Of a stretch of DNA of 64,000 bases, positions 27,001 to 30,000 are shown piece after piece. The DNA is taken from NCBI RefSeq assembly GCF_050920415.1, contig NZ_CP169309.1; one strand, written 5' to 3'. Source of the stretch: Escherichia coli (GTDB lineage: Bacteria > Pseudomonadota > Gammaproteobacteria > Enterobacterales > Enterobacteriaceae). Positions within the stretch are counted from its first letter, which is position 1, and the number at the start of each line of letters is the position of its first letter. A program made the position numbers.

Positions 27001-30000
27001 CGGTGTATGCGACACGCCGTTGCCTGGAACGTGTCGGCTGGCAGTTGGCTGATGTCGATCTTATTGAGGCTAATGAAGCGTTTGCTGCTCAGGCGCTTTC
27101 GGTTGGCAAGATGCTTGAATGGGATGAGCGTCGGGTCAATGTTAATGGTGGCGCGATCGCGCTCGGTCACCCAATAGGCGCGTCCGGTTGCCGAATCCTG
27201 GTTTCTCTGGTTCATGAAATGGTGAAACGTAATGCCCGCAAAGGACTGGCTACGCTTTGTATCGGCGGGGGCCAGGGCGTGGCATTGACCATTGAACGTG
27301 ACGAATAGCTCTGCATTTCCTCCTTACCGATAAATATCAGCCGTCATTAATCTGTTGAATAATGGTGGCTGGCGAGTCGACATACATTTTCAGGGCTCCC
27401 TGATTTTTCCATTCTCATGACATATTCGTGATCGACACTGCACTTTCTTCAGTCCTCACCTTAAAAATGAAATATTGTTTTATTTTTAATTGAAAACCCT
27501 ATCCTGTGGGCATATCATCCCCTTATAGAGAAAACGAAACAGCGTTTCACTATCGTTTTCTATTTTCACGCTTCACTGATTATCGGAGGTTGATGTGGAC
27601 GTAAGACAAAGCATCCACAGTGCGCATGCAAAAACGCTGGATACCCAGGGGTTGCGCAATGAATTTTTGGTTGAAAAGGTATTTGTCGCCGATGAGTACA
27701 CCATGGTTTACAGCCACATTGACCGTATTATTGTTGGCGGCATTATGCCGGTAACTAAAACGGTTTCCGTTGGCGGGGAAGTTGGTAAACAACTCGGGGT
27801 AAGCTATTTCCTGGAACGTCGCGAGTTAGGTGTTATCAATATTGGCGGTGCCGGTACGATTACCGTCGATGGTCAATGCTATGAAATCGGTCACCGCGAA
27901 GCCCTGTATGTTGGTAAAGGCGCAAAAGAAGTTGTCTTTGCCAGTATTGATACCGCTACTCCGGCGAAGTTTTATTACAATTGCGCACCTGCGCATACGA
28001 CGTATCCCACCAAAAAAGTCACACCGGACGAAGTATCTCCAGTCACGTTAGGCGATAACCTCACCAGCAACCGTCGCACGATTAACAAATATTTTGTCCC
28101 GGATGTGCTGGAAACCTGCCAATTGAGTATGGGGCTGACGGAGCTGGCTCCGGGTAACTTGTGGAACACCATGCCGTGTCACACCCACGAGCGCCGGATG
28201 GAAGTTTATTTCTATTTCAATATGGATGATGACGCCTGCGTTTTCCACATGATGGGGCAGCCGCAAGAAACGCGTCATATTGTGATGCATAACGAGCAGG
28301 CGGTGATCTCCCCGAGCTGGTCGATCCATTCCGGTGTCGGAACCAAAGCTTATACCTTTATCTGGGGCATGGTCGGTGAAAACCAGGTCTTTGATGATAT
28401 GGACCATGTGGCCGTTAAAGATTTGCGCTAGTTGTGGGCATAAACGAATAAGGTATTGTTATGATTTTAAGTGCATTTTCTCTCGAAGGTAAAGTTGCGG
28501 TCGTCACTGGTTGTGATACTGGACTGGGTCAGGGGATGGCGTTGGGGCTGGCGCAAGCGGGCTGTGACATTGTCGGCATTAACATCGTTGAACCGACTGA
28601 AACCATCAAGCAGGTCACGGCGCTGGGGCGTCGTTTTTTAAGCCTGACCGCCGATCTGCGAAAGATTGATGGTATTCCTGGACTGCTGGATCGCGCGGTA
28701 GCTGAGTTTGGTCATATTGATATCCTGGTGAATAACGCCGGATTGATTCGGCGCGAAGATGCTCTCGAGTTCAGCGAAAAAGACTGGGACGATGTCATGA
28801 ACCTGAATATCAAGAGCGTATTCTTCATGTCTCAGGCAGCGGCGAAACACTTTATCGCACAAGGCAATGGCGGCAAGATTATCAATATCGCGTCAATGCT
28901 CTCCTTCCAGGGCGGGATCCGTGTGCCTTCTTATACCGCATCAAAAAGCGGCGTGATGGGCGTGACGCGATTGATGGCGAATGAATGGGCTAAACACAAC
29001 ATTAATGTTAATGCGATAGCTCCGGGTTACATGGCGACCAACAATACTCAACAACTACGGGCAGATGAACAACGTAGCGCGGAAATTCTCGACCGCATTC
29101 CAGCTGGCCGTTGGGGACTGCCGAGTGACCTGATGGGGCCGGTAGTGTTTCTTGCCTCCAGTGCTTCAGATTATGTGAATGGTTATACCATTGCCGTGGA
29201 TGGCGGTTGGCTGGCTCGTTAATCCATTCTTCTTACTTTTATGACCCTGCCGCATGGCAGGGTTTTTTATACCTGTAGATCATCATAATCCATATCATGG
29301 TTATGAAATAATCCATATCAATTATCAATTAGTGAACTTTATGAATTTTATCTGCTTTAAAATTAGTTGGTTAATAATAATCTCAATAATTCAACTTAAT
29401 TTGAAAATTGGAATATCCATCACATAACGACATGTCGCAGCAATTTAATCCATATTTATGCTATTTCCGACCTGACACCTGTGTGAATTGTTCACGTATT
29501 TTTTCACTATGTCTTACTCTCTGCTGGCAGGAAAAAATGGTTACTATCAATACGGAATCTGCTTTAACGCCACGTTCTTTGCGGGATACGCGGCGTATGA
29601 ATATGTTTGTTTCGGTAGCTGCTGCGGTCGCAGGATTGTTATTTGGTCTTGATATCGGCGTAATCGCCGGAGCCTTGCCGTTCATTACCGAACACTTTGT
29701 GCTGACCAGCCGTTTGCAGGAATGGGTGGTCAGTAGCATGATGCTCGGCGCAGCAATTGGTGCGCTGTTTAATGGGTGGCTGTCGTTCCGCCTGGGGCGT
29801 AAATACAGCCTGATGGCGGGGGCTATCCTTTTTGTGCTCGGTTCGATAGGGTCCGCTTTTGCGACCAGCGTAGAGATGTTAATCGCCGCTCGTGTGGTGC
29901 TGGGCATTGCTGTCGGGATCGCGTCTTACACCGCTCCTCTGTATCTTTCTGAAATGGCAAGTGAAAACGTTCGCGGTAAGATGATCAGTATGTACCAGTT

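What the first reader, a model, noticed from the sequence alone, without database searches (positions are those of the whole stretch)
27466..27551. Two KdgR-type operators upstream of kduI
AATGAAATATTGTTTTATT matches the KdgR consensus completely and AACGAAACAGCGTTTCACT matches with two mismatches, about 50 bp apart and ahead of the kduI GTG start. This is consistent with known KdgR control of kduI-kduD and serves as a check on the annotation.
Basis: partly seen in the sequence, partly recalled or inferred. Interest (0 to 1): 0.25.

Follow-up and report, generated by a model that had tools for sequence, protein, structure and literature searches.

The report
KdgR operators bracketing the kduID promoter
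Two repressor-binding sites of the KdgR type sit on either side of the promoter of the E. coli sugar-acid genes kduI-kduD; they are real, conserved in some 80 related species, and already known, so they confirm the annotation rather than reveal anything new.

Summary
Both sequences are present exactly as described: box 1 at 27466-27484 and box 2 at 27533-27551, 48 bp apart, ahead of the kduI GTG at 27595. They are far beyond chance. They are the only two matches to the KdgR consensus with at most 2 mismatches in 64 kb (0.20 expected). They are also the two top-scoring positions with a weight matrix built from independent sites. The window is E. coli chromosome (yqeF-kduI-kduD-araE). In 78 of 80 other Enterobacteriaceae species the same layout recurs with fixed spacing: box 1, 8 nt, TTGAAA, 17 nt, TAnnAT, 17-18 nt, box 2. 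The two operators therefore bracket a sigma-70 promoter, at about -59..-41 and +8..+26. Published work on E. coli K-12 shows kduD mRNA rising in a kdgR mutant, and induction of the kduI promoter by galacturonate and glucuronate. The paralogous repressor PlaR also binds this region in vitro. Box 1 matches "completely" only against a degenerate consensus. In this strain box 1 carries a rare C-to-T change (7 of 5,426 genomes) at a position that is otherwise invariant, so box 2 scores higher. The feature is already known and of low interest.

The parts
27427..27442 (+). Conserved upstream element CGTGATC-N7-CA, resembling a CRP half-site. Its centre at 27434.5 lies about -90.5 from the predicted transcription start.
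   Evidence: CGTGATC is nearly invariant in the 80-sequence alignment. It matches 6-8 of 10 positions of the TGTGA-N6-TCACA core across species and 6 of 10 in the window, at a fixed 40.5-41.5 bp from the box 1 centre. Mean information is 1.32 bits against 0.20 in the flank. It is not within 2 mismatches of the CRP core in the window. The assignment to CRP is an inference.
27466..27484 (.). KdgR-type operator O1 (box 1), AATGAAATATTGTTTTATT, centre 27475, at about -59..-41. It carries a rare T at 27473.
   Evidence: 0 mismatches to the IUPAC consensus. PWM score 18.5 bits, or 25.5 with the common C. Present in 78 of 80 species, always 8 nt upstream of TTGAAA. Half-sites carry 1.7-1.8 bits and the centre 0.98. 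The T allele occurs in 7 of 5,426 E. coli genomes against 5,245 with the C allele.
27490..27495 (+). -35 hexamer TTGAAA of the kduID promoter.
   Evidence: Found by the promoter scan. Identical in 80 of 80 sequences that have the promoter, at 2.0 bits. The same hexamers are listed for the kduI constitutive promoter in PMC3946193.
27513..27518 (+). -10 hexamer TATCAT, 17-nt spacer. The predicted transcription start is about 27525, give or take 2.
   Evidence: The hexamer is TAnnAT with a 17-nt spacer in 80 of 80 sequences, in seven variants that differ only at positions 3-4. The transcription start is inferred, not mapped.
27533..27551 (.). KdgR-type operator O2 (box 2), AACGAAACAGCGTTTCACT, centre 27542, at about +8..+26 in the 5' leader.
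   Evidence: 2 mismatches to the IUPAC consensus. It is the top PWM hit in the window at 22.8 bits. Its core starts 17-18 nt after the -10 in 70 of 80 sequences. Half-sites carry 1.2-1.7 bits and the centre 0.34.
27585..27589 (+). Shine-Dalgarno sequence GGAGG of kduI.
   Evidence: 1.81 bits.
27595..28431 (+). kduI (5-dehydro-4-deoxy-D-glucuronate isomerase), GTG start.
   Evidence: ORF. RefSeq annotation at the same coordinates in a collinear genome. The start codon is GTG in all but three of the related loci.
28461..29222 (+). kduD, the second gene of the operon, 29 bp downstream of kduI.
   Evidence: No KdgR-like site lies between kduI and kduD.

Best explanation
The interval 27466-27551 is the regulatory core of the E. 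coli kduI-kduD operon. A sigma-70 promoter (TTGAAA-17-TATCAT) is bracketed by two imperfect palindromes of the KdgR (IclR-family) operator type. O1 lies immediately upstream of the -35, at about -59..-41. O2 lies in the early transcribed region, at about +8..+26.

Without inducer, KdgR occupies both sites and keeps the operon off. O1 would hinder RNA polymerase (alpha-CTD or sigma region 4) and any activator bound further upstream. O2 would block open-complex formation or promoter escape. When hexuronates or pectin fragments are catabolised to 2-keto-3-deoxygluconate-type compounds, KdgR leaves the DNA and kduID is transcribed.

Shown here: the sites, their statistical significance, their equivalence to the kdgK and kdgT sites, their position relative to a conserved promoter, and their conservation. 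Taken from the literature: derepression in kdgR mutants, induction by galacturonate and glucuronate, and additional in vitro binding of the region by PlaR. Inferred: the exact transcription start, the steric mechanism at each site, and the identity of the inducer in E. coli.
For: - Both boxes are the only consensus matches with at most 2 mismatches and the top two PWM hits in 64 kb.
- A PWM built from box 1 orthologues recovers the K-12 kdgK site (17.3 bits) and kdgT site (24.4 bits) as by far the best hits in 36 kb of control DNA.
- The layout is fixed in 80 of 82 sequences: box 1 core, 8 nt, TTGAAA, 17 nt, TAnnAT, 17-18 nt, box 2 core.
- Half-sites are conserved while the central 3 nt vary, as expected for a site bound by a dimeric protein.
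- The same hexamers are given for the kduI promoter bound by RNA polymerase holoenzyme in vitro (PMC3946193).
- kduD mRNA rises in a kdgR mutant (PMC6958661), and kduI and kduD are over-expressed in a strain with a deletion that includes kdgR (PMC6892915).
- The kduI promoter fragment is induced 7- to 54-fold by galacturonate or glucuronate (PMC3578941).
- kdgR is present in 5,424 of 5,426 complete E. coli genomes.
Against: - No direct KdgR footprint or EMSA on these two boxes was found in the accessible literature. Rodionov 2004, which predicted the sites, is not held.
- The transcription start is predicted only.
- PlaR binds the kduI region in vitro, and kduD also rises in a plaR mutant, so occupancy may be shared.
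- The centre-to-centre distance of 67 bp is about 6.4 helical turns, which puts the sites out of phase. This gives no support to cooperative looping between O1 and O2.
- In this strain O1 has a T at an otherwise invariant position, which may weaken it.
- kdgR itself lies outside the window, so its presence in this particular strain is assumed from the species.
Confidence: 0.85

Rival explanations
1. The boxes are mainly operators of the paralogous IclR-family repressor PlaR (YiaJ), and KdgR affects kduID only indirectly, for example through the reported cross-regulation between kdgR and plaR.
For: A PlaR genomic-SELEX peak lies at kduI, kduD mRNA rises in a plaR mutant, and the reported PlaR box ATnTGAAACnnnGTTCAnTT resembles the KdgR box. 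plaR mRNA rises in a kdgR mutant and the reverse is also true (PMC6958661).
Against: - The kduI boxes score like the kdgK, kdgT and upstream third-box sites from other genera (20.6-27 bits).
- PlaR's own strongest target, the plaR-yiaK spacer, is not detected by that matrix: the best score in 8 kb is 5.0 bits. It shares only the GAAAY-N3-GTTTC core.
- KdgR and PlaR are only 34% identical.
- PlaR gel shifts needed 1-5 uM protein.
- The boxes are conserved in 78 species together with classical KdgR-regulon neighbours such as ogl and a kdgM-like porin.
Confidence: 0.07
2. Only one of the two boxes is a working operator. The other is a decaying relic, or is kept for a different reason such as an UP-element-like A/T tract (box 1) or a leader RNA hairpin (box 2).
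For: - kdgK and kdgT in K-12 each have a single box, so one box can suffice.
- Box 2 orthologues are more degenerate (AACGGAAC...GTTTCGTT, 3-4 mismatches) and were not detected in 6 of 80 sequences.
- Box 1 in this strain carries a change at an invariant position.
- Box 2 can form a small stem in the leader RNA.
Against: - Both boxes keep half-site conservation of 1.2-1.8 bits with variable centres across about 78 species, at fixed distances from the promoter.
- The leader fold is no more stable than shuffled sequence (z = -0.12), and there is no Rfam match.
- Both boxes exceed every other position in the window with an independent matrix.
Confidence: 0.08
3. The matches are chance A/T-rich palindromes in an A/T-rich, H-NS-bound spacer, or they reflect a small coding sequence, and have no regulatory role.
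For: The spacer is A/T-rich and flagged as H-NS-bound (PMC3946193). Small ORFs overlap the region. A published putative 23-aa microprotein lies in the same spacer.
Against: - The chance expectation is 0.20 for one site with at most 2 mismatches, and 0 of 100 shuffles gave two.
- The sites are conserved across genera while the surrounding spacer is not.
- The published smORF lies at 27347-27418 on the other strand, outside the boxes, and its ATG is lost in other Escherichia species.
Confidence: 0.01

Closest known systems
KdgR operators of the Enterobacterales KdgR regulon (Dickeya dadantii pel, ogl, kdgT and kduI genes; E. coli kdgK and kdgT), consensus AAATGAAACAnTGTTTCATTT
   Same: They share the palindromic GAAAC-N3-GTTTC core with A/T flanks and the promoter-proximal location. 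They control the same pathway, catabolism of pectin and hexuronates to KDG. The logic is the same: a repressor relieved by pathway intermediates. The K-12 kdgK box also lies immediately upstream of a -35-like hexamer: box, 4 nt, TTGACC.
   Different: kduI has two boxes bracketing the promoter, whereas K-12 kdgK and kdgT each have one. The O2 flanks are degenerate (AAC...ACT). This strain's O1 has GAAAT rather than GAAAC.
PlaR (YiaJ) boxes of E. coli K-12 (PMC6958661)
   Same: PlaR is an IclR-family repressor with a similar reported 21-bp palindrome. The kduI region is one of its in vitro targets, and kduD is derepressed in a plaR mutant.
   Different: PlaR's main operator region (plaR-yiaK spacer) is not recognised by the KdgR-type matrix. 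Its reported effectors are ascorbate and galacturonate rather than KDG. PlaR is only 34% identical to KdgR.
Bacillus subtilis kduID control by its KdgR, with two KdgR-binding sites in the kdgR-kduI intergenic region (Lin and Shaw 2007, known to me only as a reference title listed in PMC6353982)
   Same: The same operon (kduI-kduD) is repressed through two operator sites in its upstream region.
   Different: From my own knowledge, the B. subtilis KdgR is a LacI-family protein with an unrelated operator sequence. The resemblance is one of logic, not homology.
CRP and KdgR co-control of pectinolysis promoters in Dickeya (from my own knowledge; not tested here)
   Same: A conserved CGTGATC-N7-CA element lies upstream of O1 at a fixed distance, where a class I CRP site could lie.
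   Different: In E. coli the element matches only 6 of 10 CRP core positions. I found no evidence of CRP binding at kduI.

Membership tests
KdgR (IclR-family) operator of the enterobacterial KdgR regulon | Imperfect palindrome matching the KdgR-box consensus | tested here: met
   Box 1 has 0 mismatches and box 2 has 2 against the IUPAC 19-mer. Against the published 21-mer, box 1 has 2 mismatches and box 2 has 4 by my count. They are the top two PWM scores in the window.
KdgR (IclR-family) operator of the enterobacterial KdgR regulon | Same motif as the sites at the KdgR targets kdgK and kdgT that the literature names as known | tested here: met
   A matrix built from box 1 orthologues of other genera finds the kdgK site (17.3 bits) and the kdgT site (24.4 bits) as the top hits in 36 kb of K-12 DNA; the next best scores 8.9 or less.
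KdgR (IclR-family) operator of the enterobacterial KdgR regulon | Located at the promoter of a pectin or hexuronate catabolic gene, in a position compatible with repression | tested here: met
   The boxes flank the conserved TTGAAA-17-TATCAT promoter of kduI. The transcription start itself is predicted, not mapped.
KdgR (IclR-family) operator of the enterobacterial KdgR regulon | Conservation of the site upstream of orthologous genes | tested here: met
   Box 1 is present in 78 of 80 species. The box 2 core is present in 74 of the 80 sequences that carry the promoter. Half-sites are conserved and centres vary.
KdgR (IclR-family) operator of the enterobacterial KdgR regulon | The cognate regulator gene is present in the genome | tested here: inconclusive
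   kdgR is not in the window. It is present in 5,424 of 5,426 complete E. coli genomes, so it is very probably present in this strain, but this was not shown.
KdgR (IclR-family) operator of the enterobacterial KdgR regulon | Target gene derepressed when kdgR is inactivated | not testable with these tools
   Literature for K-12 only: kduD mRNA is higher in the kdgR mutant (PMC6958661), and kduI and kduD are higher in a strain with a deletion that includes kdgR (PMC6892915).
KdgR (IclR-family) operator of the enterobacterial KdgR regulon | Direct binding of KdgR to the site, and release by KDG | not testable with these tools
   No footprint or EMSA of E. coli KdgR on these boxes was found in the papers held.
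PlaR (YiaJ) box | Resemblance to PlaR's primary operator (plaR-yiaK spacer) | tested here: inconclusive
   The GAAAY-N3-GTTTC core is shared (TGAAATCAAGTTTCG in the spacer), but a KdgR-type matrix scores nothing above 5.0 bits there. PlaR binding to the kduI region is reported in vitro.
Class I CRP site (for the upstream CGTGATC element) | Match to TGTGA-N6-TCACA at a helical-phase position upstream of the promoter | tested here: inconclusive
   The match is 6 of 10 in the window, which is not within 2 mismatches, and 6-8 of 10 across species, with an invariant left half and fixed spacing. The predicted centre is about -90.5, give or take 2.

The most novel reading that the evidence does not exclude
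The rare C-to-T allele at 27473 changes the otherwise invariant GAAAC half-site of O1 to GAAAT. It occurs in 7 of 5,426 complete E. coli genomes. The same core is seen in the plaR-yiaK spacer, PlaR's strongest target. The allele might measurably weaken KdgR binding at O1, or shift O1 towards PlaR. This lineage would then have a leakier or differently induced kduID operon, making it a natural regulatory variant of hexuronate metabolism.
Probability: 0.2. Interest if true: 0.3.

Novelty: already known. Interest (0 to 1): 0.13.

Why it matters
The main value is as a positive control. It shows that the kduI start, the operon and the regulatory region are annotated correctly, and that a plain sequence reading can recover a genuine operator pair. 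Three smaller points add a little:
- The operator-promoter-operator layout is spaced identically in about 80 Enterobacteriaceae species.
- A conserved CGTGATC element lies upstream of O1 and has no assigned factor.
- This strain carries a rare substitution at an invariant operator position, which could be tested as a natural cis-regulatory variant.

None of these changes current understanding of KdgR control.

Tried and rejected
- **RNA element in the spacer or leader.** There is no Rfam match at E <= 1, and the predicted leader folds no better than shuffled sequence (z = -0.12). Rejected.
- **Small protein-coding explanation.** The published 23-aa putative microprotein next to kduI (PMC11188072) is the minus-strand ORF at 27347-27418. 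It lies outside the boxes and is specific to E. coli. It does not explain the boxes.
- **Other KdgR sites in the window.** There are none. The next-best matrix hits (1709 at 12.6 bits, 35272 at 11.7 bits) are at the level of the shuffle maximum (mean 11.4).
- **KdgR site at eda as a further independent reference.** There is no match with at most 3 mismatches in 10 kb. The best matrix hit scores only 8.9 bits, inside edd. It was not used.
- **Rodionov 2004**, the paper that predicted the E. coli sites, is not held. The exact IUPAC consensus string is not found in the library, so that string rests on my memory. The 21-mer consensus is cited from PMC5559549.
- **Looping between O1 and O2.** The 67-68 bp spacing is conserved, but it is about 6.4 helical turns. 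I do not claim cooperativity.
- **L002 as a natural promoter-less kduI.** Its upstream 560 bp has no match in any E. coli genome. It is probably a chimeric or contaminated metagenome-assembled contig and is not informative.
- **Mapped transcription start or ChIP data for KdgR at kduI.** Literature searches found none.
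Full report
**The observation.** AATGAAATATTGTTTTATT lies at 27466-27484 and AACGAAACAGCGTTTCACT at 27533-27551. 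The gap is 48 bp and the centres are 67 bp apart. The sites lie upstream of a GTG-initiated ORF at 27595-28431 that is preceded by GGAGG at 27585-27589. The window is E. coli chromosome. The 1.5 kb around the site matches 5,418 of 5,426 complete E. coli genomes and is annotated yqeF, kduI, kduD. IAI39 and the collinear strain MFDS1022581 give the gene order yqeH, yqeG, yqeF, kduI, kduD, araE, with kduI starting at the same GTG.

**Is it more than chance?** Yes, by three measures.
- Against the degenerate consensus AATRAAAYRNYRTTTYATT (recalled from memory; the string is not in the paper library), the boxes have 0 and 2 mismatches. They are the only hits with at most 2 mismatches in the 64 kb on both strands. 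The expectation is 0.20, and 0 of 100 shuffles gave two. The four other hits with at most 3 mismatches all have 3.
- Against the published consensus AAATGAAACAnTGTTTCATTT (quoted from Rodionov 2000/2004 in PMC5559549), extended box 1 has 2 mismatches and is the only hit with at most 3 (0.01 expected). Extended box 2 has 4 by my count.
- I built a symmetrised weight matrix from sites that are not the kduI boxes. These were 28 distinct sequences of a third box found further upstream in other genera, plus the single boxes upstream of K-12 kdgK and kdgT. In the one such neighbourhood I examined (Enterobacter, L025), the upstream neighbour is a divergent ogl gene. With this matrix, box 2 (22.8 bits) and box 1 (18.5 bits) are the two best of 127,964 positions in the window, and the next scores 12.6. 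The maximum in 200 dinucleotide shuffles averaged 11.4 (sd 3.1), and 6 of 200 reached 18.

The converse test also holds. A matrix made only from box 1 orthologues of non-Escherichia genera picks the kdgK site (17.3 bits) and the kdgT site (24.4 bits) as by far the best hits in 36 kb of K-12 control DNA. The kduI boxes therefore belong to the same motif class as the operators of kdgK and kdgT, which the cited papers name as known KdgR targets.

**Anatomy and conservation.** A scan of one genome per species found kduI loci in 80 Enterobacteriaceae species. In 78 of them box 1 lies 112-136 nt before the start codon, and in most of them box 2 lies 52-69 nt before it. The two exceptions are metagenome-assembled contigs with unrelated upstream DNA.

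The layout is rigid. In 80 of 82 sequences (the window, IAI39 and 78 of the loci) the order and spacing are:
- box 1 core,
- exactly 8 nt,
- TTGAAA,
- exactly 17 nt,
- a hexamer TAnnAT, in seven variants that differ only at positions 3-4,
- then, after 17 or 18 nt in 70 of 80, the box 2 core.

In the window the hexamers are TTGAAA (27490-27495) and TATCAT (27513-27518). The promoter scan found this pair as its only hit in the region. The same pair is listed for the kduI promoter bound by sigma-70 holoenzyme in vitro (PMC3946193).

Information content across the 80 sequences is as follows:

| Element | Mean information (bits) |
|---|---|
| Operator half-sites | 1.2-1.8 |
| Operator central 3 nt | 0.3-1.0 |
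| -35 hexamer | 2.0 |
| -10 hexamer | 1.43 |
| Shine-Dalgarno | 1.81 |
| Rest of spacer | 0.2-0.75 |

Conserved half-sites with free centres are the signature of a site bound by a dimeric protein. Taking the transcription start at about 27525, give or take 2 (inferred from the -10), O1 covers about -59..-41 and O2 about +8..+26. Within E. coli the spacer is unusually polymorphic. A 71-bp piece is only 80-95% identical in nearly all genomes. Yet the boxes, the hexamers and the Shine-Dalgarno sequence are essentially constant among eight E. coli and three other Escherichia sequences.

**Mechanism.** The best-supported reading is a promoter bracketed by two KdgR operators. KdgR bound at O1 abuts the -35 and would interfere with polymerase contacts or with an upstream activator. 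KdgR bound at O2 sits over the initially transcribed region.

The literature supports the regulatory logic at the level of the operon:
- kduD mRNA rises in a K-12 kdgR mutant (PMC6958661).
- kduI and kduD are over-expressed in a strain with a deletion that includes kdgR (PMC6892915).
- A kduI promoter fragment is induced 7- to 54-fold by galacturonate or glucuronate (PMC3578941).
- kdgR is a core gene, present in 5,424 of 5,426 genomes.

Three things remain inferred: the steric details, the transcription start, and the inducer. I take the inducer to be KDG, as in Dickeya, from general knowledge. The 67-68 bp spacing between centres is conserved but equals about 6.4 helical turns. I therefore see no argument for looping. 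The spacing is explained by the fixed promoter between the two sites.

**Rivals.**
- *PlaR.* PlaR (YiaJ), a 34%-identical paralogue, binds the kduI region in genomic SELEX, and kduD also rises in a plaR mutant. However, its strongest target, the plaR-yiaK spacer, is not recognised by the KdgR-type matrix (best 5.0 bits), whereas the kduI boxes score like kdgK, kdgT and the third-box training sites (20.6-27.4 bits). I regard PlaR as a possible additional occupant, not the main one.
- *RNA element.* This reading is not supported. There is no Rfam match, and the leader fold has z = -0.12.
- *Coding sequence.* This reading fails. The published putative 23-aa microprotein next to kduI is the minus-strand ORF at 27347-27418. 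It lies outside the boxes and is specific to E. coli.

Box 1 is a "complete" match only to the degenerate consensus. At 27473 this strain has T (GAAAT). All 75 box 1 orthologues from other genera, the ten other Escherichia sequences examined and 5,245 E. coli genomes have C. Only 7 of 5,426 genomes carry T. With the independent matrix the change costs about 7 bits (25.5 to 18.5). That figure is inflated by pseudocounts, but its direction is clear. In this strain, box 2 is the better-scoring site.

**Comparison with what is known, and novelty.** These are the orthologues of the K-12 sites AATGAAACATTGTTTTATT and AACGAAACAGTGTTTCACT. kduID is described as containing the KdgR box and as a known KdgR target (PMC6958661, citing Rodionov 2000/2004). 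The finding is therefore already known.

A few points may go slightly beyond the published picture, and none is surprising:
- the invariant spacing of the operator-promoter-operator unit across about 80 species;
- a conserved CGTGATC-N7-CA element centred about 41 bp upstream of O1, which resembles a CRP half-site but matches only 6 of 10 core positions in E. coli;
- the rare O1 allele.

Interest is low. The finding works as intended, as a check on the annotation.

Noticed in passing
window 27473: Box 1 carries T where the C allele is found in 5,245 complete E. coli genomes and in all 75 orthologues from other genera. The T allele occurs in 7 of 5,426 genomes, on at least two backgrounds: 24A16CRGN010 matches the full 40-mer, while SCU-104, TUM1886 and four bovine OkiPb strains match only from query position 3.
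   Followed up: yes
window 27427-27442: A CGTGATC-N7-CA element is nearly invariant across 80 species, at a fixed 40.5-41.5 bp upstream of the box 1 centre. It resembles a CRP half-site (6-8 of 10 core matches), and no factor is assigned to it.
   Followed up: partly
window 27347-27418 (minus strand): A 23-aa ATG ORF, MRMEKSGSPENVCRLASHHYSTD, differs by 2 residues from the putative microprotein NC_008253.1_ORF.30477. That microprotein was predicted to bind KduI and reported as stress-induced (PMC11188072). Its ATG is lost in other Escherichia species (CAT becomes CCT in L003-L005).
   Followed up: partly
L006-L081, about -250 to -400 from the kduI start: Many genera have a third KdgR-type box, ATCAAAAC-N3-GTTTCATT, further upstream. 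In Enterobacter (L025) the upstream neighbour is a divergent ogl gene with a kdgM-like porin gene. In Citrobacter (L016) yqeF is upstream as in E. coli, but the spacer is longer (482 bp) and keeps the third box. E. coli has no third box.
   Followed up: partly
window 27309-27594: The yqeF-kduI spacer is far more polymorphic within E. coli than the flanking genes. A 71-bp piece is 80-95% identical in nearly all genomes, against 95-99% for the 1.5-kb region. The functional elements stay constant.
   Followed up: partly
window 26039-26054: TGTGATAAAAATCACT has 1 mismatch to the CRP core and lies about 70-85 nt upstream of the yqeF start. A weaker match, TGGAATATCCATCACA at 29409-29424, lies upstream of araE.
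   Followed up: no
window 1 to about 21000: By collinearity with strain MFDS1022581, this part is a type III secretion gene cluster that I recognise as the ETT2 island (sctC, sctN, sctT, eprH-like, ygeH, and others). It includes frameshifted genes and, in that strain, an IS2 copy at 18935-20162. I did not verify this in the window itself.
   Followed up: no
L002 (JACZXR010000090.1, 'Deltaproteobacteria' MAG): The contig encodes a KduI 99% identical to the window's. However, the 560 bp upstream of it matches no E. coli genome, and the similarity ends about 33 nt before the start codon. It is probably a chimeric or contaminated contig.
   Followed up: partly
window 27390-27403: A weak terminator-like hairpin, TCAGGGCTCCCTGA followed by TTTTTCC, lies about 80 nt after the yqeF stop. 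K-12 has two substitutions in the stem (CTGGGCTCCCTCA).
   Followed up: no
L086 (E. coli 2014C-3051): kduI is annotated as a frameshifted pseudogene in this strain, although the operators are intact.
   Followed up: no
window 29408-30955: The mechanical ORF for araE starts at a TTG at 29408. RefSeq places the start at 29537, so the long ORF is an over-extension.
   Followed up: no
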